DNA from: a virus
Length of the DNA stretch: 64,000 nt
IMG/VR virus record: IMGVR_UViG_3300015374_000001
Coordinates: 1 to 64,000 of that record
Reading direction: 5' to 3' (one strand)
Shown: one piece after another, positions 5,699-15,697 of the stretch
Layout of the letters: each line of letters begins with the position of its first letter
Numbering within the stretch: position 1 is the stretch's first letter
Position numbers and translations under genes: made by a program
The notes under the pieces: generated by a model
What the model was told of the DNA's origin: nothing
Databases searched by the model: none
What the model saw: the letters and a program-made list of their open reading frames with translations, nothing else

Positions 5699-6493
5699 CT
5701 ATACCGGTTCGTGATCTGGCCTGTGATACTGCCGACAGCTACCTTTGATTATGCAACTAGCTAGCGTGAAACACTCCATGCAACTGTCCTTGATAGTAAA
5801 TTCAGGTACAAATTTACCTTCAGGGACAACGCATCCTATACCCGCATAAGGAACAGTTTCAGTTAATGGCTCTGGCAGGTGCAAGTCTTCACAAATTTCA
5901 AAGGCTTGTTTGGTTGTACGAAGCTGTCGCCACAATTTATGTACGCCCATATCGCCCATTGCCTGAGATTGCACATCAAGAATGTCATGAAATGCAACAA
6001 ACCGAGACAGTGGACCGTACATCATCCAGTCTCGGGTGACACCGGGATAGCTGTGATCGCCGTCGATAAAAAGAAAGTCGATCTGGTGCCCCTGTAATTG
6101 ATTTGTCAAAGCAACCAGCATAGCCGCTGAATGAGAATCACCAACCAGCATCCTAAATTCTTGGCTACGATTAACTGCAAAAATCTCTAGCTGTGTAGCA
6201 ACATGAACATCAAATGCGCCACCGGGAGCACCGGGATCATCTATACCAATAAATAAAGACCCTTGTGGGCAAGCTTGCATCCAAGCCCACATCGTTCCGC
6301 CCCGATGCAGGCCGATTTCTACAACTATCTTCGGCTTCAGAATAGATAAAATCTGTAGGAGCGTGGCTAGCTCCTTCTCTTTCTGAAGCGCTTGAAGTTC
6401 ACGGACGGCATATTTGGCTATTCCTTCAGCCGTAGCCCAATCCATCGCACCATTTTGTTTGATATCCATAGGCATATCCCTAGAACTATCCAC
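5699..6493 (-). CDS. class I SAM-dependent methyltransferase (Methyltransf_24-like)
   Basis: VEIGxxxGGT, IGID, GDS, IDFLFIDGDHSY, FHDI motifs. Confidence 0.85.
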   Translation of the reverse strand: MDSSRDMPMDIKQNGAMDWATAEGIAKYAVRELQALQKEKELATLLQILSILKPKIVVEIGLHRGGTMWAWMQACPQGSLFIGIDDPGAPGGAFDVHVATQLEIFAVNRSQEFRMLVGDSHSAAMLVALTNQLQGHQIDFLFIDGDHSYPGVTRDWMMYGPLSRFVAFHDILDVQSQAMGDMGVHKLWRQLRTTKQAFEICEDLHLPEPLTETVPYAGIGCVVPEGKFVPEFTIKDSCMECFTLASCIIKGSCRQYHRPDHEPV

Positions 6494-6725: not shown

Positions 6726-6923
6726 GTGGACATGCCTCTAGAACACAAGATTATTTGTAAAATAACCGAGATAGAACGTATCCCGCGTATCACTCAAGGC
6801 AATGGGCACGAATTAGTTCTAGTCTTTGAGGGCGAGCTTAGGAGGAATACGAAAGATTGGATCGAACAAGCCATCAAGAGGGAGAACATCACCATCGTTC
6901 AGAATAAAAAGCTAATAGGTTAG
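6726..6923 (+). CDS. hypothetical protein
   Basis: First ORF of rightward cluster. Confidence 0.6.
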   Translation: MDMPLEHKIICKITEIERIPRITQGNGHELVLVFEGELRRNTKDWIEQAIKRENITIVQNKKLIG

Positions 6924-6929
6924 GTAGAT

Positions 6930-7415
6930 ATGTCAGACGAAGCAGGAATGCCACAAAAGGAAATCAAGACTCGCAGAGTCACTGCCATTACCTTTCGCAT
7001 GGTCGAGATGGCAGAGCGTTTCCTTCAGACCCGCGAATTTGTTGATCCCGCCAGCAGCCCGGTTGATGCTCAGCCACAGATCCAGTTTCCTTTATTCGGC
7101 GGTGAGATGACGCTTGAGACTGTTCCGGGCGAGCACGTTGTCTGGTGTCAGGGTGGAACTAATGATCAAACCATCCGCCGCGTCGAGAAGCCGAACGGTG
7201 ACGGCACCATTCTCACCAAGATTTATTCAATTCAAGCGATCTTAGCCCGCGAGCAGGAATTTGAGGTGCCAATTGAGCAAGAGGCGCAAGGGGAGGAAGC
7301 TCCGCAAATTATCCTTCCACGAACGGCAAGCGAAGAAGAAGCACAACCAAAGAACGGATCGAGCCGAGAAAATAGCGGCGAAGCAAAAGACGATTCCGGG
7401 GGAGAAGACGGCTAA
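6930..7415 (+). CDS. hypothetical protein with acidic tail
   Basis: 161-aa ORF. Confidence 0.7.
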   Translation: MSDEAGMPQKEIKTRRVTAITFRMVEMAERFLQTREFVDPASSPVDAQPQIQFPLFGGEMTLETVPGEHVVWCQGGTNDQTIRRVEKPNGDGTILTKIYSIQAILAREQEFEVPIEQEAQGEEAPQIILPRTASEEEAQPKNGSSRENSGEAKDDSGGEDG

Positions 7416-7439
7416 AGAAAAGAAAATGCCTGGTGTCTG

Positions 7440-7703
7440 ATGGAACCTGATCTTAATAACCAAATAGAAACTCGTGTACCGTTCCGAGTGCAATTAAACT
7501 TCAGTGCGGCTGTCAGTGTCGATGATGAAGATCTTGCTGAATTCACTGAAGTCTATGAACGTATGATTGAAACGGCTGAGAAGTTAGGCATGCACTTAGA
7601 ATTTGGTTATATAATGCCGATGGAGCGCGGTGACGTTATCCCAGGCGGCGGACTTGATGAGGATCTACGTCTTAGCGCACGGCCAGCACTGACGCAGCCA
7701 TGA
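7440..7703 (+). CDS. hypothetical protein
   Basis: Operon packing. Confidence 0.65.
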   Translation: MEPDLNNQIETRVPFRVQLNFSAAVSVDDEDLAEFTEVYERMIETAEKLGMHLEFGYIMPMERGDVIPGGGLDEDLRLSARPALTQP

Positions 7704-7900
7704 GTGAGAATCAGGAACTCTTAGTTAATTCAGCGGAGCGAGCACATATCGCTTTTGATGAATATATAGCTGCAAGACGAGTAGCCGTAGAAAATCCTGC
7801 TCAAAAATTTCTTGAGATTGATCGTTGGCATGAGCTTCAAGCTCGAATGCGCGATTTAGGTTATTACTTAGAGCTAAATGCTAAAAACAGATCTGAATGA
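7700..7900 (+). CDS. hypothetical protein
   Basis: ATGA overlap. Confidence 0.65.
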   Translation: MSENQELLVNSAERAHIAFDEYIAARRVAVENPAQKFLEIDRWHELQARMRDLGYYLELNAKNRSE

Positions 7901-8126
7901 GCGGCAGCAGGCATGTTTGAGGTTCCTTGTGACCAAGGGCGAGCCGGTGAAGCTGGATCGGTTTGTGTTTCCTCAAGAGGAATCTCGGTCTGTATTGCCA
8001 AAGACAACCATTGCGGCGTTATTTATTGTTAGGAGTCTTATCGATATGGGTCTAGTCAGGAGGGTAGGCAAGACAGAAATTGCATACGAAAGCACAGATA
8101 AAGCGAAGGAATTGGAGCTAATTTAA
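7878..8126 (+). CDS. putative winged-helix DNA-binding protein
   Basis: LNERQ...SLIDMGLV...YESTDKAKE pattern. Confidence 0.6.
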   Translation: MLKTDLNERQQACLRFLVTKGEPVKLDRFVFPQEESRSVLPKTTIAALFIVRSLIDMGLVRRVGKTEIAYESTDKAKELELI

Positions 8127-8356
8127 TGGCCGATAAAACGATCAAGGCCAGGGACATTAAGGTGGGGGATGAACTCCACCTGCGATTTGCAGGAGGGGAT
8201 GATTATTTCGAAGTAGATCGCGTTGAAGTAATTCCCGATCAGACAGATGATCCGAATCGGGAAGACACAGTTAAATGGCAGGCATCCAACAGCATTGGTC
8301 AGTTTGAAGATATTTGCAGCGCTGACCAAGATGTAGATATCAAGGTAAAGGAGTAA
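8126..8356 (+). CDS. small beta-barrel-like hypothetical
   Basis: IKARDIKVGD; TAATG overlap. Confidence 0.65.
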   Translation: MADKTIKARDIKVGDELHLRFAGGDDYFEVDRVEVIPDQTDDPNREDTVKWQASNSIGQFEDICSADQDVDIKVKE

Positions 8357-8358
8357 AT

Positions 8359-8589
8359 ATGAGCACTACGATTTATACGATGGGCGGCGGCGAGTTTGAG
8401 CTTAGCGACGATGAGAAGTTCAATAAGGTTCGTAAGCGTCTGAACGATCTGGCGGCTGGTGAGCACGAAGACGATCCTTTTACTCATTTCCAGTTTCACG
8501 ATGAGCAGGGTGGTCGTATCTCGATTAACCCCGATAAGGTCATTGCGATTCACTCTACGCTTCGCACCGATCAGGCCGAAGAAGAGTAA
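8359..8589 (+). CDS. hypothetical protein
   Basis: AAGGAG RBS. Confidence 0.7.
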   Translation: MSTTIYTMGGGEFELSDDEKFNKVRKRLNDLAAGEHEDDPFTHFQFHDEQGGRISINPDKVIAIHSTLRTDQAEEE

Positions 8590-8594
8590 ACAAA

Positions 8595-9446
8595 ATGGAA
8601 CTGCCGCCATTCGATAAGGTGGCATCGAATGTGCTGGGGGCCGTGGAAGATCTTCTGCGGTCCCCACTCGTTCGGGGTGCCTACGATAAATTAGATAGAA
8701 CCACGAAGCCTTACCCGGCTCCTGAAGATGTAGAAACCGAATACCTTGTACGTCAGGCGATGCTAGATGGTCGCTTGCCTAGTATTATTGAAAATGCTTC
8801 TAAGCTCGCAAACGAAGCATTAAAGTTCGAGCACGTTATCGCTGATGATGATTCGAGTCAGATGCGACGGCTCGTTACTTTGCGTGATTGTCTTCAGCAA
8901 GTTTCTTCTCTGCTCAAGGGCGAGAAGATCGATGATTTTGTTCATGATCACACTGAAGGACGGCATTGGACGCCTGGTACTACTAGGCTCACGTGGCCTA
9001 GCATGCCGAGTGTGAAAGTCAAAAAAGCTGGTAACGCTTCAGATCAGCTTGTTCCTGTCGGGACTGTGGATATTTTTCCGCCTCAAGCTGCTGCATTTAC
9101 GCTTCCTGCCGATGGCAGAACAATTAAACGGGACGATTATCCTGATTTCAAAGGCGTTCCAGACGGTTGGACATACAGGCATGATGCAGACGGCAAACTT
9201 TGGCTTGATCTTCCTGATGAGCGCGAGAACGTAATTGATATCGATGTATCTGATGAGGGCGATGTAACCGCTCCTGTTATAGATGCAGCGGCAGACGCTA
9301 TTGATCGCGGCAATGCTTTTAGTTATATTAAGCGAATTCGTAATATATCTGCTGATAACACTGCCGATATCAATGATGATTGGGATAAAGTCAATACTCT
9401 CGCTGTTGATGCGATGAATATATTGAAGGGCGATAGAGATGCCTAG
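8595..9446 (+). CDS. hypothetical protein with degenerate tail-collar-like segment
   Basis: VPVGTV...LPADGRTIKRDDYPDF. Confidence 0.65.
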   Translation: MELPPFDKVASNVLGAVEDLLRSPLVRGAYDKLDRTTKPYPAPEDVETEYLVRQAMLDGRLPSIIENASKLANEALKFEHVIADDDSSQMRRLVTLRDCLQQVSSLLKGEKIDDFVHDHTEGRHWTPGTTRLTWPSMPSVKVKKAGNASDQLVPVGTVDIFPPQAAAFTLPADGRTIKRDDYPDFKGVPDGWTYRHDADGKLWLDLPDERENVIDIDVSDEGDVTAPVIDAAADAIDRGNAFSYIKRIRNISADNTADINDDWDKVNTLAVDAMNILKGDRDA

Positions 9447-9846
9447 TGCAGAACAGATGCAGAGAAACTATGCTGCGCTCGCGGAGCAAGCGGAGAAACT
9501 GTGTGCTACGGCCGTGGTCTTTTCAGACAAAGTAGAAAATCCGGTCTGGAAGGATGGTTTGCTGGCAGAAGTTGAGCAGCTTCGTGAGTTAATTAAGATA
9601 GCTCCCCGGCGTTCACCCTGGAATGGGGAGCTTCACGAAGACGATTTAGAAATTACTTTTTACAGAGCGCCGGGACAAACTATTAAAGAAGAACCACGTG
9701 GAGTCATCATTCGGCATAAACCTACTGACATTACACGGGAATCTTATAGCCAAATTAGTCAAATGTCTAATCGTGAAGTCGTGATTGGCGCTCTTACGAA
9801 AGCAGTTGGCGAGCACTATGCCGACCAAGGCGAATACGCAAATTAA
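9439..9846 (+). CDS. release-factor (RF-1 domain 3)-like protein, GGQ replaced by PGQ
   Basis: DDLEITFYRAPGQ-8-VIIRHKPT-10-SQMSN aligns by eye with RF1 DLRIDTFRSSGAGGQ-8-IRITHLPT-10-SQHKN. Confidence 0.7.
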   Translation: MPSAEQMQRNYAALAEQAEKLCATAVVFSDKVENPVWKDGLLAEVEQLRELIKIAPRRSPWNGELHEDDLEITFYRAPGQTIKEEPRGVIIRHKPTDITRESYSQISQMSNREVVIGALTKAVGEHYADQGEYAN

Positions 9847-10756
9847 TTGGCAGAACGTGCTGCTGTCGGCCAGCGCGATTGTCAAGTCCTACGATACTGG
9901 CGTGACGCTGCGCCAGCTTTTCTACAGGCTTGTTTCGGAGCAGATGATTCCTAACTCCGTGAGCGCGTACAAGGTTTTGTCTCGCAAAACCGCAGAGGCT
10001 CGCCGAGAGGGATGGTTTCCATCGCTCATCGATAGAACACGCGCCATTGAAGTTAATCAATCATTTGATGACCCTAACGATGCGCTGTACTGGCTTTGGA
10101 AAATCTATCGTCGTGATCGAACAGAAAATCAAGAATGGTCTGTTTATCTCGGCGTTGAAAAGCACGGTATGGTTGTCCAGCTACAAGATTGGTTTGGTGA
10201 TTATGGTTTACCTATCCTGGCGCTCGGAGGTTATTCGTCGCAAACTTTTGTTGATGTTGTCGCGGATGACGTAATTAATCAAGGCCGCAACAGTGTTCTG
10301 CTCTACGCTGGCGACTTTGATCCAAGCGGAGTGGATATCGACCGTGATTTTTTGGATCGCACGGGTATTTTCACTGATGTTAGGCGAGTCGCGTTAAGAG
10401 AAGACCAGCTTGAGAAATATAATTTACCTCCGTTGCCTGGTAAAGAGTGGGATTCACGAGCAGAAAGCTTCATGGCTCAATATGGCGAGCTAATGCAGGT
10501 TGAATTAGATGCACTTCCACCTGAAACTATGCGCGGTCTTTACAAGGAAGCGCTGGACGAATTCTTTGATTATGAGGCTTGGGAAGAGGTTAAGAAGCAA
10601 GAGGATGAAGAATTAATCAAGCTCGACCAAACCAGGGAAGAATTCGGCCTCTCCACGAAGGATCTGATGCGCGGTAGAATGAAGGCTGCCAACACGCAAA
10701 CGCTGGATGCAATGGCACGCCTGATACGCGACATAAAGAAGGAGAGGAAGAGGTGA
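9818..10756 (+). CDS. Toprim-domain protein, topoisomerase VI A/DUF2399-like
   Basis: TLRQLFYRL, VEK, GYSS, LYAGDFDPSG, ELDAL motifs; start moved to ATG 9818. Confidence 0.8.
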   Translation: MPTKANTQINWQNVLLSASAIVKSYDTGVTLRQLFYRLVSEQMIPNSVSAYKVLSRKTAEARREGWFPSLIDRTRAIEVNQSFDDPNDALYWLWKIYRRDRTENQEWSVYLGVEKHGMVVQLQDWFGDYGLPILALGGYSSQTFVDVVADDVINQGRNSVLLYAGDFDPSGVDIDRDFLDRTGIFTDVRRVALREDQLEKYNLPPLPGKEWDSRAESFMAQYGELMQVELDALPPETMRGLYKEALDEFFDYEAWEEVKKQEDEELIKLDQTREEFGLSTKDLMRGRMKAANTQTLDAMARLIRDIKKERKR

Positions 10757-11037
10757 TCGACTTTGCTTTGTGGGAGGATTGTGAAGCTCGCCACCGCGCC
10801 GCCGCCTCCAATTCCGTGGCTCTTAGGGATTTTGTTTTCGACCGATGGGCCGAAGTCGAGGCAGCCTGCGAATTTAATAATCCTGACAACTGGTCGGAAG
10901 CGAGAATCATAATCGCTACCGATGAAGGTCTGGCAGATTGCTCTATTTATTTGCCAAAGAACCTTGAAGATGAGGAATGGCTTGGGATGCTGATTTGGTG
11001 TTTCGAGTCAGGAACCTATGAAGCAGCCGAAGACTAG
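10753..11037 (+). CDS. hypothetical protein
   Basis: GTGA overlap, RBS. Confidence 0.65.
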   Translation: MIDFALWEDCEARHRAAASNSVALRDFVFDRWAEVEAACEFNNPDNWSEARIIIATDEGLADCSIYLPKNLEDEEWLGMLIWCFESGTYEAAED

Positions 11038-11353
11038 TTGCCCGCGCTGCGGATCTAAACAGCGTTTCCCTCTCCGCACAGAAGACATGGGCGAGGGAAT
11101 TAAGCGGGAATTTATTCGGTGCAATATGTGTCGCATGGAGCGCGACATTAATTACACCACGGATAGGCTTCAACAGTTACGTGGCAAGCGAGCACGTTGT
11201 AGGCGCATGATCGGTCACGAGAAGGATTCCCACGGTGCAGTCTCCGATGCAACCAACCGTGTGATGATCAGAATCGTGCAGGATATAAAAGAAGAATCGG
11301 CGTATATAGCCAGAAAGATTTTTGAACGAAATGCTCACGTTCCGCCAGCTTGA
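11018..11353 (+). CDS. zinc-ribbon protein
   Basis: CPRC...CNMC. Confidence 0.7.
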   Translation: MKQPKTSCPRCGSKQRFPLRTEDMGEGIKREFIRCNMCRMERDINYTTDRLQQLRGKRARCRRMIGHEKDSHGAVSDATNRVMIRIVQDIKEESAYIARKIFERNAHVPPA

Positions 11354-11570
11354 GATGGTCGTGCATGTGGCCAATGGCTTAACGACCGCTGAGATAGCGG
11401 AACATATGCATTTGTCTCAAAGCTCTGTGCAGCAGACACTAGACAAAGCTCGCACCCGCGCGAGCGCGAAGACTCTCCCTCACCTCGTCAGCATTGTGAT
11501 CGCCAGTGGCGCTCTTGAATGGAATGAAGACAAGTCCACGAGAGGGGTACCTGATGCTGATAGCAACTAG
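11322..11570 (+). CDS. LuxR-type HTH regulator (stand-alone)
   Basis: LTFRQLEMVVHVANGLTTAEIAEHMHLSQSSV. Confidence 0.85.
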   Translation: MNEMLTFRQLEMVVHVANGLTTAEIAEHMHLSQSSVQQTLDKARTRASAKTLPHLVSIVIASGALEWNEDKSTRGVPDADSN

Positions 11571-11778: not shown

Positions 11779-12030
11779 TTAAACTAAACCCATTAGCTCA
11801 GCGAGGCTTTCGATGGGCTTCGGCTGAGTCAGTAATTCCTTGATTTCAGAAGGAGTCAGGCCAGAGGCCGCAGACACTTCGTCAATCGAGTAGCCCGAGT
11901 CGCGGACCATCGAAATAGCCGCCTGCTCAAGCATGGAGCGCTTACCAGCGGTCATCACTTCCGCTCGAATGAGCCCATGAGAGAGCATCGTGAGGGTGTC
12001 AAGTGCCTGTGACATGATTCCTCCTTTCAC
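11779..12030 (-). CDS. small HTH protein
   Basis: GYSIDEVSAASGLTPSEIKEL; true start probably MSQALD after AAGGAGG. Confidence 0.7.
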   Translation of the reverse strand: MKGGIMSQALDTLTMLSHGLIRAEVMTAGKRSMLEQAAISMVRDSGYSIDEVSAASGLTPSEIKELLTQPKPIESLAELMGLV

Positions 12031-12140: not shown

Positions 12141-12431
12141 GTGGTGGCCGCAACAGGCAATCAATCCTCTGATGGATCTTCACTAATTGACGCTCGTGGC
12201 AGGGTGACCTGTCCCAATTGTGAAATCCCCAGGCACTTGATGTGGTACAAGCGCTTGGAGCAGATCGAGAAGTACGCCATGGAGACAAATCCAATCCTTC
12301 AATGCCCGCACTACAAGCCGACAGGCTGCGGTCACATTTTCTCCCCCGGCGATCACTCCCTGTTGCTCTCCGTACTAGCGCCACCTCAATCAAATGGGAA
12401 GCCTCAGGAGGTAGCGGCTAGTGGAGCATGA
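12141..12431 (+). CDS. zinc-ribbon protein
   Basis: CPNC...CPH...CGH. Confidence 0.6.
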   Translation: MVAATGNQSSDGSSLIDARGRVTCPNCEIPRHLMWYKRLEQIEKYAMETNPILQCPHYKPTGCGHIFSPGDHSLLLSVLAPPQSNGKPQEVAASGA

Positions 12432-14635: not shown

Positions 14636-15697
14636 ATGGCATTTATTGACGATATTCTCGAACAGTCCAACCTGACCGACGCAATTGTTGGTCCGCTTGA
14701 GACTGAGATGGAGACTGCTCCCCGGCTTGGGGATCAGATCGCTCCTATTCAAGATATCGACGGCCAGTACGTTTCTATGCGAGTCGAAGACCTGCATGCA
14801 TTCGGTATTGGTCAATTCAGGGCACCGGAAGCAACGCCGCCCCTGATGGATATCACTGGTCGAGAAGAGCGCGAGGAAGTCATTGAGCTTGCGCACCTGG
14901 ACGAAATGCACCGCATTTCTCCAATTAGGTGGGAGCGGCTTAATTCGACGGACGAAGCGGTTGTTTCGAAAGAAGCCCGCCGCCTCATTGAAATCGGCCA
15001 GATCCTTGAGCGTCGTAATGAGCGCCTGACTGAATGGATGCGTTGGCAGGCATTTAGTGGCCAATTAACCATTGAGTATCAGGAGCGCAATACCGCTCTC
15101 GTTATTGATTACCCGCTGCCGTCCGGTCACAAGCCGACCGTGACTACAGGCTGGGACGATTTAACTGACTCCGACCCGGTTGCAGATATGCGCGCTTGGT
15201 CGAGGCAGATCGGTAATTCAAGTGGCACGCCAGGCACGATTTTCCATATGACTGGTGATGACCTTGAGAATGTAATTAATAACGAAAAGCTCCGCCTTTA
15301 CTTTAATGTTGAGGCTGGGCAGCCGTTCCTCCCGACTCAGGAAGATGTTGAACGTCTTCTGCCGCCGGGTAGCTCCATCGTGCAGCAGGACGCTGCGTAT
15401 CGCGCCGAGTCGGTTGGTGCCGCTAAGGCTCCCGCCGATCACACGCGCTACCTGCCTGTGGGCAAGGTATTAGTTACGACCGCCTACACGCTGGATGGAG
15501 TTCCGATTGCTGATACGCCGAACGGTGATGTGGAAATTGCCACGGGCTACAACACCACCGCTCTGCTGAAGGGTCCGCAGTCGGAAGTGATCATGAAGGG
15601 CGAGGGTGCCTACCAGCGCATGCTGCGTCAGGCGTCCCGTCGAATTGTCCGCCTGCGTCGGCCGGAGGCTTTCCTTTACGCCGACATTCTGCCGTAG
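14636..15697 (+). CDS. major capsid protein (gpE-like)
   Basis: 353 aa, EWMRWQAFSG, IDY, WD...DP..D; strong RBS. Confidence 0.85.
   Translation: MAFIDDILEQSNLTDAIVGPLETEMETAPRLGDQIAPIQDIDGQYVSMRVEDLHAFGIGQFRAPEATPPLMDITGREEREEVIELAHLDEMHRISPIRWERLNSTDEAVVSKEARRLIEIGQILERRNERLTEWMRWQAFSGQLTIEYQERNTALVIDYPLPSGHKPTVTTGWDDLTDSDPVADMRAWSRQIGNSSGTPGTIFHMTGDDLENVINNEKLRLYFNVEAGQPFLPTQEDVERLLPPGSSIVQQDAAYRAESVGAAKAPADHTRYLPVGKVLVTTAYTLDGVPIADTPNGDVEIATGYNTTALLKGPQSEVIMKGEGAYQRMLRQASRRIVRLRRPEAFLYADILP

What the first reader, a model, noticed from the sequence alone, without database searches (positions are those of the whole stretch)
9439..9846. Release-factor catalytic-domain mimic in which GGQ has become PGQ
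Seen: LHEDDLEITFYRA-PGQ-TIKEEPRG-VIIRHKPT-DITRESYSQI-SQMSNRE keeps RF1/RF2 domain-3 spacing (8 aa from Q to the xxIxHxPT strand, 10 aa from PT to SQxxN). The loop is 3 aa shorter and reads PGQ (9670-9678). There is no codon-recognition domain and no ArfB-like basic tail; an N-terminal helical segment is present instead. Known: GGQ is essential for peptidyl-tRNA hydrolysis and is methylated by PrmC. Inference: a probably inactive mimic that titrates PrmC, blocks termination or rescue, or decoys a translation-linked defence.
Basis: partly seen in the sequence, partly recalled or inferred. Interest (0 to 1): 0.75.

Follow-up and report, generated by a model that had tools for sequence, protein, structure and literature searches.

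The report
Phage release-factor domain without GGQ
An uncultured 94-kb soil phage and its relatives keep a small protein that copies only the peptide-releasing domain of bacterial translation release factors, but its catalytic loop is shortened and no longer conserved, so it most likely works by binding something rather than by cutting peptides off tRNA; what it binds is unknown.

Summary
ORF 9439-9846 (+, 135 aa) is a true homologue of release-factor domain 3. hhalign against full-length RF1/RF2 gives 97.9% probability (E 3.7e-13). The AlphaFold model (pLDDT 94) superposes on RF1, mtRF1, PrfH and mtRF-R at Z 9-10. The loop is 3 residues shorter than in RFs and reads PGQ at 9670-9678.

It belongs to a rare, unnamed family of about 30 sequence clusters, all from metagenomes. 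Members share an acidic N-terminal helical hairpin, a WDG linker and the RF domain.

In this family the loop is the least conserved part, whereas it is the most conserved part in genuine GGQ domains. Q is kept in 23 of 31 members and GQ in 6 of 31. The HxPTG strand and the SQxxN asparagine stay near-invariant. This is purifying selection on the fold without the catalytic motif, not neutral decay.

The gene holds a fixed place in a regulatory-looking operon of a clade of ~95-112-kb uncultured soil phages, always followed by a Zn-ribbon gene and a sigma-region-4 HTH gene.

A non-catalytic binding role is well supported. The target (ribosome, RNA or another protein) is not shown. A conserved PrmC-decoy role is unlikely.

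The scan earlier found different GGQ-less RF domains in Acinetobacter T4-like phages.

The parts
9439..9846 (+). Gene for the 135-aa RF-domain-3-like protein (stop included)
   Evidence: ORF list. N-terminus aligns at M1 in 32 of 34 family members. hhalign to RF1/RF2 97.9%. AF2 pLDDT 94.4.
9425..9430 (+). Shine-Dalgarno-like GAAGGG, 8 nt before the ATG, inside the end of the upstream gene
   Evidence: Read directly from the sequence. Inference only.
9448..9597 (+). N-terminal two-helix hairpin (residues 4-53), acidic across the family
   Evidence: DSSP on the model: H4-29 and H35-53. Net charge of the N-terminal part is -2 here and -2 to -11 in the hairpin-bearing members. Only generic helical-hairpin structural matches. 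Aligns to nothing in RF1/RF2.
9598..9630 (+). Linker with family-specific P56 and W61-[DN]62-G63 motif (WNG here)
   Evidence: P56 in 26/32, W61 in 23/31, D62 in 22/32, G63 in 26/32. P56 aligns with the P of the RF 'V-x-P-E' strand that precedes domain 3.
9631..9828 (+). RF domain-3 (bRF-PH) fold: beta 70-75, loop, beta 88-93, beta 98-102, helix 108-129
9667..9699 (+). Degenerate 'GGQ' loop (residues 77-87, APGQTIKEEPR), with PGQ at 9670-9678; 3 residues shorter than in RFs
   Evidence: Gap placement. Least conserved region of the family (mean top-residue frequency 0.30), against 0.9-1.0 at GGQ in 21 genuine phage-borne GGQ domains.
9715..9729 (+). H93-K-P95-T96-D97, the HxPTG strand/turn of RF domain 3 (G97 is D here)
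   Evidence: H93 in 32/34, P95 in 26/34, T96 in 32/34, G97 in 30/34.
9757..9771 (+). S107-Q-M-S-N111, the SQxxN start of helix alpha7; N111 is the only invariant residue besides M1
   Evidence: N111 in 34/34.
8595..9446 (+). Upstream 283-aa helical protein whose stop overlaps the RF-like start (ATGCCTAG); a lineage-specific companion, not universal
   Evidence: Overlap read from the sequence. Homologues P0044 and P0045 sit on contigs of the same lengths (7014 and 8380 bp) as RF-like P0002 and P0003. L040 has a homologue in the same position. Absent from the two near-complete related genomes G001 and G002. No family hit. AF2 model unusable (pLDDT 43).
8359..8589 (+). Conserved 76-aa gene that precedes the RF-like region in all related loci
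   Evidence: blastp hits in L040, L043, L044 and L045 in the same order.
9785..10756 (+). Toprim/DUF2399 'DNA topoisomerase' gene (phrog_6247), inserted after the RF-like gene only in this phage
   Evidence: phrog_6247 E 3.2e-48. Missing at this place in L040, L043 and L044.
11018..11353 (+). Zn-ribbon protein (phrog_1315), the constant downstream neighbour
   Evidence: Follows the RF-like gene directly in L040, L043, L044 and L045.
11322..11570 (+). 82-aa sigma-70 region-4 / LuxR-type HTH protein, the constant second downstream neighbour and last gene of the operon
   Evidence: Pfam Sigma70_r4_2 E 4.7e-7 and GerE 4.9e-6. 48-58% identical in L040, L043 and L044. Followed by a minus-strand gene at 11779-12030.

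Best explanation
The gene encodes a non-catalytic descendant of release-factor domain 3 (the bRF-PH fold) joined to an acidic helical hairpin. It is a conserved gene in a densely packed operon of small regulatory-looking genes (which I read, by inference, as early) in a clade of ~95-112-kb uncultured soil/rhizosphere phages. Shown: homology and fold; the shortened loop that is not conserved in the family; selection on the rest of the protein; the fixed genomic position. Inferred: the protein acts by binding, not by hydrolysis. The fold's only well-established docking site is the A-site/peptidyl-transferase cleft of the large ribosomal subunit. My preferred mechanism is therefore that it occupies or probes that site during infection without releasing the peptide. 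That would modulate host termination or ribosome rescue (competing with RF1, RF2 or ArfB), with the acidic hairpin supplying a second contact in place of the codon-reading domain. The structural and 'non-catalytic' parts I hold at about 0.85-0.9. The ribosome as target I hold at about 0.35-0.4; the figure given below is for the whole statement.
For: Homology: (97.9%, E 3.7e-13, 81 columns running from the RF V-x-P-E strand to the end of alpha7). Fold: (RF1 6osk Z 10.3, mtRF1 10.3, PrfH 9.4, mtRF-R 9.1). Family: 39 representatives at E<=1e-3 among 1.84 billion, most of them 112-146 aa with the same architecture, plus six more members. Loop: it is the least conserved region here (0.30) and the most conserved in genuine GGQ domains. 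GQ is kept in 6/31 and Q in 23/31, with about 6 independent changes of the Q state. Bulky residues often precede Q. By established knowledge both glycines are needed for release activity (Frolova 1999, Mora 2003 and Shaw & Green 2007, as listed in PMC6514570). Core motifs are retained (H93, T96, G97, N111), as are several basic positions shared with RFs (R76 in 22/34; K/R90 in 26/34). Synteny across four diverged lineages (GC 49-62%; MCP 65-66% identical). Precedents for inactive release-factor-type domains that still act at the ribosome: MRPS35, Dom34 and baeRF-1 (PMC6514570).
Against: No experiment or interaction data exist. The RF-like domain has lost the positive charge of genuine GGQ domains: net -3 here and about 0 in the family, against mostly +3 to +12. 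The accessory part is acidic, which is poor for rRNA or mRNA-channel binding. An isolated domain 3 has no known autonomous ribosome affinity (ArfB needs its basic tail; my own knowledge). The conserved residues could be purely fold determinants. No tRNA, suppressor or other translation gene accompanies it. Its constant neighbours are DNA/RNA-binding-type regulators, not translation factors.
Confidence: 0.4

Rival explanations
1. The fold has been re-used away from the ribosome. The protein would be an RNA- or protein-binding component of the phage's regulatory module, working with the Zn-ribbon protein and the sigma-region-4 HTH protein that always follow it. It could, for example, control the switch to late (head) gene expression or stabilise a transcript.
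For: The run RF-like -> Zn-ribbon (phrog_1315) -> HTH is constant in all five loci that could be read. The operon is rich in small wHTH, Zn-ribbon and HTH genes and ends just before the head module. The domain has lost its basic charge. Precedent: plant PrfB3, an RF2 relative that lost SPF and GGQ and became a petB mRNA-binding stabiliser (PMC5897788).
Against: Gene order in a phage operon is weak evidence of joint function, and all loci belong to one phage clade, so synteny may simply be inherited. There are no fusions or co-occurrence outside the clade. No nucleic-acid-binding motif was found, and the protein is acidic (pI about 5).
Confidence: 0.3
2. A decoy for a host protein that recognises RF domain 3, above all the glutamine methyltransferase PrmC, lowering RF methylation and termination efficiency.
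For: The fold is that of the PrmC substrate domain. Q is retained in the window's protein and in 23/31 members. A short-loop 'YRAPGQ' version recurs in other phage RF-1 architectures: P0024, P0028, P0032 and L031.
Against: The loop that PrmC must bind is the least conserved region. G before Q is present in only 6/31, Q has been lost about 6 times, and loop length varies. The sister sequence P0003 already has PNQ. No PrmC-related gene lies in the context.
Confidence: 0.08
3. It is still a peptidyl-tRNA hydrolase with a non-canonical minimal loop (PGQ), at least in the window's own subclade. That would make it a stand-alone rescue or release enzyme.
For: Q80 and the flanking R76-x-P78 are the best-kept loop positions. 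The window's protein and its 72%-identical relative keep RAPGQ, identical to more distant short-loop RF-1 proteins. Burroughs & Aravind argue that the di-glycine is not strictly required in every RF-PH family (PMC6514570).
Against: The loop is 3 residues shorter, and Pro replaces a Gly whose mutation abolishes activity in RF1, RF2 and eRF1 (references listed). There is no ribosome-anchoring tail or codon-recognition domain. The family tolerates loss of Q and bulky residues next to it. The domain is acidic here.
Confidence: 0.07
4. A decaying remnant of a captured host release-factor gene with no function.
For: The catalytic loop is degenerate, and the Pfam score is below the gathering threshold.
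Against: About 30 clusters at 22-72% identity keep the length, start, hairpin, WDG linker, HxPTG and the invariant N111. The position is fixed in four diverged phage lineages. The gene is translationally coupled, with an intact frame in four independent runs. The AF2 model is very confident.
Confidence: 0.03

Closest known systems
Domain 3 (GGQ / peptidyl-hydrolase domain, Pfam RF-1 PF00472, 'bRF-PH') of bacterial class-I release factors RF1 and RF2
   Same: Same fold and topology (beta, loop, beta, beta, alpha7). Same spacing from Q to the HxPTG strand and from there to SQxxN. Homology extends into the V-x-P-E strand that precedes domain 3 in full-length RFs.
   Different: No domains 1, 2 or 4. 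Loop 3 residues shorter. GGQ absent and the loop not conserved. The domain is roughly neutral or acidic instead of basic. An unrelated acidic helical hairpin sits at the N-terminus. The protein ends right after alpha7, with no switch loop.
Stand-alone GGQ-domain rescue factors: ArfB/YaeJ, ICT1, C12orf65 (mtRF-R), PrfH
   Same: A small protein built around the RF domain-3 fold without stop-codon recognition (structure Z 9.4 for PrfH, 9.1 for mtRF-R).
   Different: Those proteins keep GGQ and carry a basic C-terminal helix (ArfB, ICT1, mtRF-R) or a domain-2-like part with an RtcB partner (PrfH). Here GGQ is lost, the C-terminus is acidic and the extra element is N-terminal. No NCBIfam ArfB or PrfH model matched at E<=1.
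Catalytically inactive release-factor-type domains: mitochondrial MRPS35 (bRF-PH without the glutamine, flanked by helical domains), Dom34/Pelota and baeRF-1 (PMC6514570)
   Same: Loss of the catalytic glutamine or loop with retention of the fold, and addition of helical accessory parts (MRPS35). These are proposed or shown to act non-catalytically at the ribosome.
   Different: Those are cellular or organellar proteins, and Dom34 and baeRF-1 have an unrelated fold. This family is phage-borne and much smaller, and nothing yet ties it to ribosomes. That survey mentions no phage version (0 occurrences of 'phage').
Plant PrfB3 (RF2 relative that lost SPF and GGQ; PMC5897788)
   Same: A release-factor homologue that lost its catalytic motif and was kept for another job in gene expression.
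   Different: PrfB3 is a full-length RF2-like protein of chloroplasts that binds the petB 3' UTR. Here only domain 3 remains.
Other phage RF-1-domain proteins: phrog_20323; BFVD entries from Acinetobacter phage 133, Pseudomonas phage phiPsa347, Mycobacterium phage Phabba; GGQ-less forms in IMG/VR loci L008, L016, L031, L034, L036, L037, L039; the RRW/Trp-loop family noted earlier by this scan in Acinetobacter T4-like phages
   Same: Phage-encoded, domain-3-only, often without GGQ, function untested.
   Different: Different architectures: a bare 68-78-aa domain, or the domain at the N-terminus with C-terminal extensions. None has the acidic hairpin plus WDG linker. The T4-like ones sit in tRNA clusters, whereas this phage window has no tRNA. 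Matches to phrog_20323 are weak (E 1e-4 to 1e-3).

Membership tests
Pfam RF-1 (PF00472) / bRF-PH superfamily | Score at or above Pfam's gathering threshold (35 bits) | tested here: not met
   20.3 bits, E 5.7e-4; 21.5 bits in the six-frame search. Relatives in L043 and L044 are not detected at all at E<=0.01.
Pfam RF-1 (PF00472) / bRF-PH superfamily | Homology by profile-profile comparison, and the same fold | tested here: met
   hhalign 97.9%, E 3.7e-13, 81 columns. Foldseek top 48 PDB hits are all RF-type proteins. VIA Z 10.3.
Catalytically competent class-I release factor domain | Invariant GGQ within a uxGxGGQ loop of canonical length | tested here: not met
   PGQ, loop 3 residues shorter. 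In the family GQ is kept in 6/31 and Q in 23/31, against 21/21 GGQ in the control set, which was selected for GGQ.
Catalytically competent class-I release factor domain | HxPTG strand and SQxxN helix start | tested here: met
   H93, P95 and T96 are present (D replaces G97). S107-Q108-x-x-N111 is present. N111 in 34/34.
Full-length RF1/RF2 | PCRF domain (PF03462) and codon-recognition superdomain with the PxT/SPF motif | tested here: not met
   No PCRF hit at E<=10. hhalign covers only RF columns 214-297. The protein is 135 aa.
ArfB / ICT1 / C12orf65 | GGQ domain followed by a linker and a basic C-terminal helix | tested here: not met
   The protein ends 6 residues after alpha7 with an acidic tail. 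Net charge is -6. No ArfB model hit.
PrfH-RtcB2 ribosome repair pair | GGQ-bearing PrfH next to an RtcB ligase gene | tested here: not met
   GGQ is absent. The neighbours are a helical protein of unknown family and a Toprim protein. RtcB itself was not searched for in the rest of the genome.
phrog_20323 (phage 'RF-1 domain peptide chain release factor') | Significant match to the PHROG profile | tested here: inconclusive
   E 1e-4, 23.1 bits over 65 of 73 profile positions. Relatives score E 8e-7 to 1.4e-3. PHROGs has no curated cut-off, and the profile lacks the hairpin.
PrmC (HemK) substrate or decoy | Recognition and methylation of the loop glutamine by PrmC | not testable with these tools
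   Only indirect: the loop is not conserved in the family.

The most novel reading that the evidence does not exclude
A clade of large soil phages encodes a dedicated, catalytically dead release-factor domain that docks in the 50S A-site/peptidyl-transferase cleft. It would block or re-time peptide release or ribosome rescue (RF1/RF2/ArfB) during infection. That would be a natural protein inhibitor or modulator of translation termination, and part of a wider, undescribed phage habit of re-using GGQ-less RF domains as ribosome-targeting modules fused to varied accessory parts.
Probability: 0.2. Interest if true: 0.8.

Novelty: new variant of a known kind. Interest (0 to 1): 0.55.

Why it matters
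Release-factor domain 3 is one of the most constrained protein elements known, and its GGQ is universal. Here selection keeps the scaffold and lets the catalytic loop drift, in a virus. This implies the scaffold has a second, binding-type use that nobody has characterised. If the target is the ribosome, these proteins would be natural probes or inhibitors of termination and rescue, and a new route of phage takeover or counter-defence. If the target is not the ribosome, they are a second clear case, after plant PrfB3, of a release-factor part recruited to another job. The most complete published survey of this domain (PMC6514570) mentions no phage version, and five literature searches for phage release-factor-like proteins returned nothing on phage versions. 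Databases that transfer the label 'peptide chain release factor' to such genes are probably wrong.

Tried and rejected
1. Close DNA or protein relatives among cultured phages. Megablast of 8-12 kb found none. tblastn of the RF-like protein gave only two unannotated Listeria-phage fragment records. tblastn of the 416-aa head-module protein, the capsid and short-loop P0032 found no match.
4. The search for related loci failed or found nothing with A1, A2, A3 on genome contigs, P0007, P0049 and P0047, A4 and A8 on genome contigs. No prophage copy and hence no host were found.
6. The AF2 model of the upstream partner has pLDDT 43 and was not used for a fold search.
7. The ESM Atlas gave no feature hits, and only generic hairpin matches for residues 1-64.
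8. PADLOC: no defence-family hit for the RF-like protein or its partner.
9. The idea that the hairpin is a remnant of RF domain 1. VIA aligned 112 residues to RF1 1zbt but at rmsd 13.7 A, and hhalign and Pfam see no PCRF signal. Rejected as unsupported.
10. The idea of an obligatory two-subunit unit with the 283-aa upstream protein. Rejected, because the partner is absent from two 96-100% complete related genomes.
11. A link to suppressor tRNAs, as in the T4-like cases. There is no tRNA in the window and no Rfam hit at 6-13 kb.
12. Natural variants for a dN/dS test. Four runs gave identical sequence. No RNA holder is listed.
13. Pfam on fusion partners of other GGQ-less phage RF-1 proteins found no second domain. 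P0030 is a low-complexity repeat false positive.
14. Literature. Five searches for phage release-factor-like proteins returned nothing on phage versions: searches found no paper, and one search found only the Burroughs & Aravind survey.
Full report
THE OBSERVATION. The window is the first 64 kb of a 94,196-bp IMG/VR virus record estimated 83% complete. ORF 9439..9846 (+) encodes 135 aa. A GAAGGG sits 8 nt before its ATG, and the ATG overlaps the stop of the upstream gene (ATGCCTAG). PGQ is encoded at 9670-9678. Eight residues separate Q80 from the VIIRHKPT strand, and ten separate T96 from SQMSN. Contigs of four public rhizosphere runs (2012, 2016, 2023) lie on 8595-9948 with no difference, so the frame is sound.

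IS IT A RELEASE-FACTOR DOMAIN? Single-sequence scores are weak but consistent. Pfam RF-1 gives E 5.7e-4 at 20.3 bits, under the 35-bit cut-off. phrog_20323 'RF-1 domain' gives E 1e-4. NCBIfam prfB/prfA give E 4e-5 to 4e-4. A two-sequence profile against PDB sequences returns 42 hits, 39 of them RF1, RF2 or mtRF1 in one register, with a 3-residue gap directly before Q. With 24 family members against six full-length RF1/RF2, hhalign gives 97.9% probability and E 3.7e-13 over 81 columns. The match runs from the V-x-P-E strand that precedes domain 3 to the end of helix alpha7, again with the 3-residue gap before Q. The AlphaFold2 model is very confident (pLDDT 94.4, pTM 0.71). It shows helices 4-29 and 35-53, strands 70-75, 88-93 and 98-102, and helix 108-129. 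Foldseek's best PDB matches are all RF-type proteins, with rmsd 1.2-2.0 A over about 70 residues for several RF1/RF2 chains. An exhaustive structural scan gives Z 10.3 for RF1 and mtRF1, 9.4 for PrfH and 9.1 for mtRF-R, all over model residues ~59-132. The hairpin finds only generic helical hairpins. Homology to RF domain 3 is therefore established. The hairpin is not derived from any recognisable RF part.

THE FAMILY. An exhaustive HMMER scan of 1.84 billion representatives found 39 proteins at E<=1e-3, most of 112-146 aa with the same two-part build. A further word-indexed profile search added six members. All come from metagenome assemblies, and none carries an informative name (only 'hypothetical protein') or an NCBI accession. 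Column statistics show that N111 is invariant. H93 and T96 are present in 32/34, G97 in 30/34 and G88 in 29/34. P56, W61, D62 and G63 are present in 22-26 of 31-32 sequences. By contrast G79 is present in 9/34 and Q80 in 20/31.

In a 31-member alignment of hairpin-bearing proteins, the loop (residues 77-87) is the least conserved region. Its mean top-residue frequency is 0.30, against 0.43-0.65 elsewhere. In 21 distinct genuine GGQ domains carried by other IMG/VR phages, the same loop is the most conserved part, at 0.9-1.0 at GGQ. On a tree built without the loop columns, Q is present in 23/31 and its absence needs about 6 changes, which is not clustered (shuffled mean 7.2). 'GQ' is present in 6/31. 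The residue before Q is often F, Y, M or L. The window's nearest relatives read PGQ (72% identity) and PNQ (57%). So the protein as a whole is under purifying selection while the canonical catalytic motif is not. Q keeps some residual preference that I cannot explain.

CHARGE. Family members are acidic (pI 4.8-6.9). In the hairpin-bearing members the N-terminal part carries net -2 to -11. The RF-like domain is about neutral: -3 in the window's protein and -4 to +6 in the family. Most genuine GGQ domains carry +3 to +12.

CONTEXT. The gene lies in a tightly packed rightward operon of about 13 small genes (6726-11570). The operon starts at a divergent intergenic region and ends before a minus-strand gene at 11779-12030. 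A new rightward unit then begins at 12141 and leads into the head genes: the 416-aa protein at 12421 and the capsid at 14636.

Five related loci could be read: L040 and L041 (soil metagenome, GC 62.5%) and L043, L044 and L045 (IMG/VR; contigs of 108 kb and 112 kb, 96% and 100% complete). In the four loci long enough to show context (L041 is a 1.5-kb fragment) the order is the same: the 76-aa gene, then variable genes, the RF-like gene, the Zn-ribbon (phrog_1315) and the sigma-region-4 HTH. In L043-L045, which reach that far, the head module follows with capsids 65-66% identical. The Toprim/DUF2399 gene after the RF-like gene is peculiar to the window.

The 283-aa upstream protein has homologues in L040 and, judging by equal contig lengths, beside P0002 and P0003. 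It is absent from the two near-complete relatives, so it is not an obligatory subunit. In every locus the RF-like start overlaps or abuts the stop of whatever gene lies upstream. No tRNA, Rfam family or second RF-1 gene is present. No cultured phage shares the capsid, the 416-aa protein or the RF-like gene, and no prophage copy was found.

WHAT IT MOST LIKELY DOES. Shown: an RF domain-3 fold kept by selection, without the features needed for canonical peptidyl-tRNA hydrolysis. By established knowledge both glycines of GGQ are required (references listed in PMC6514570).

Inferred: it acts by binding. I prefer the ribosomal A-site/peptidyl-transferase cleft as target, because that is the only well-established docking site of this fold. 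Inactive release-factor-type domains acting at ribosomes have precedents in MRPS35, Dom34 and the baeRF-1 families (PMC6514570). Against this stand the lost basic charge, the acidic accessory hairpin and the absence of any translation-related neighbour.

The main rival is re-use away from the ribosome, together with the always-adjacent Zn-ribbon and HTH regulators. Plant PrfB3 shows that a GGQ-less RF relative can become an RNA-binding regulator (PMC5897788). A PrmC decoy is unlikely as a family function because the loop PrmC would bind is the least conserved part. Residual hydrolase activity in the window's own PGQ subclade cannot be excluded but is improbable. Neutral decay is excluded by the conservation pattern.

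WIDER PICTURE. IMG/VR holds several other GGQ-less RF-1 proteins with different builds (L008/9, L016, L031, L034, L036/38, L037, L039). A short-loop 'YRAPGQ' form recurs in P0024, P0028, P0032 and L031. BFVD lists small RF-1 proteins in cultured phages. Earlier agents of this scan described a different GGQ-less family in the tRNA clusters of Acinetobacter T4-like phages. I did not test those claims.

The most complete published survey of this domain does not mention phages, and five literature searches returned nothing on phage versions. I therefore class this as a new variant of a known kind: inactive release-factor domains, here in a new architecture and a new phage clade.

LIMITS. The host is unknown. 

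Noticed in passing
window 9785-10756: A Toprim/DUF2399 protein (phrog_6247 'DNA topoisomerase', E 3.2e-48; weak JetD-like hits in PADLOC) is inserted between the RF-like gene and the Zn-ribbon gene only in this phage. Homologues occur in 76 cultured phage records of very different hosts (Pseudomonas, Xylella, Flavobacterium, Bacteroides and others), mostly unannotated or called topoisomerase.
   Followed up: partly
L040 961-966: In the high-GC relative, the upstream partner's TGA stop is followed immediately and in the same frame by the ATG of the RF-like gene (TGAATG). Read-through of that stop would fuse the two proteins.
   Followed up: no
L008/L009, L016, L031, L034, L036/L038, L037, L039 (IMG/VR loci): At least seven other phage proteins carry an RF-1 domain without GGQ in other architectures (68 to 445 aa, with the domain mostly N-terminal). 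Five were scanned: all pass Pfam's RF-1 threshold, and Pfam finds no second domain.
   Followed up: partly
P0024, P0028, P0032; L031 5998-6486: The exact short loop 'Y-R/S-A-P-G-Q' of the window's protein recurs in RF-1 proteins that lack the hairpin (70, 114, 181 and 162 aa). This hints at an older short-loop phage clade from which the hairpin family may derive.
   Followed up: partly
L043 6548-6985: A 145-aa ORF with a YkuD-type L,D-transpeptidase-like motif (…HGT…SHGCIRV…) sits among the small genes upstream of the RF-like gene in a related 108-kb phage. It has only a weak PHROG hit (phrog_35259, E 4.5e-6).
   Followed up: no
window 11779-12030 (-) and 12141-12431 (+): Two small genes between the RF-like operon and the head module are conserved in L040. 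One is an 83-aa minus-strand protein ending …SAASGLTPSEIKELL. The other is a 96-aa four-cysteine Zn-ribbon protein just upstream of the 416-aa head-module gene. They may mark the regulatory boundary of the late genes.
   Followed up: no
window 5699-6493 (-): A class-I SAM methyltransferase (Methyltransf_24, E 1.3e-8; CmcI-like) is encoded divergently from the operon that holds the RF-like gene. It is not of the PrmC/HemK type.
   Followed up: no
window 8595-9446: The gene caller behind the public protein collection starts this protein 12 residues later (P0043, 271 aa, 100% identical) than the longest ORF does. The window clade carries an insert of about 100 aa (residues ~125-230, beta-rich in a poor model) that the L040 homologue lacks.
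   Followed up: no
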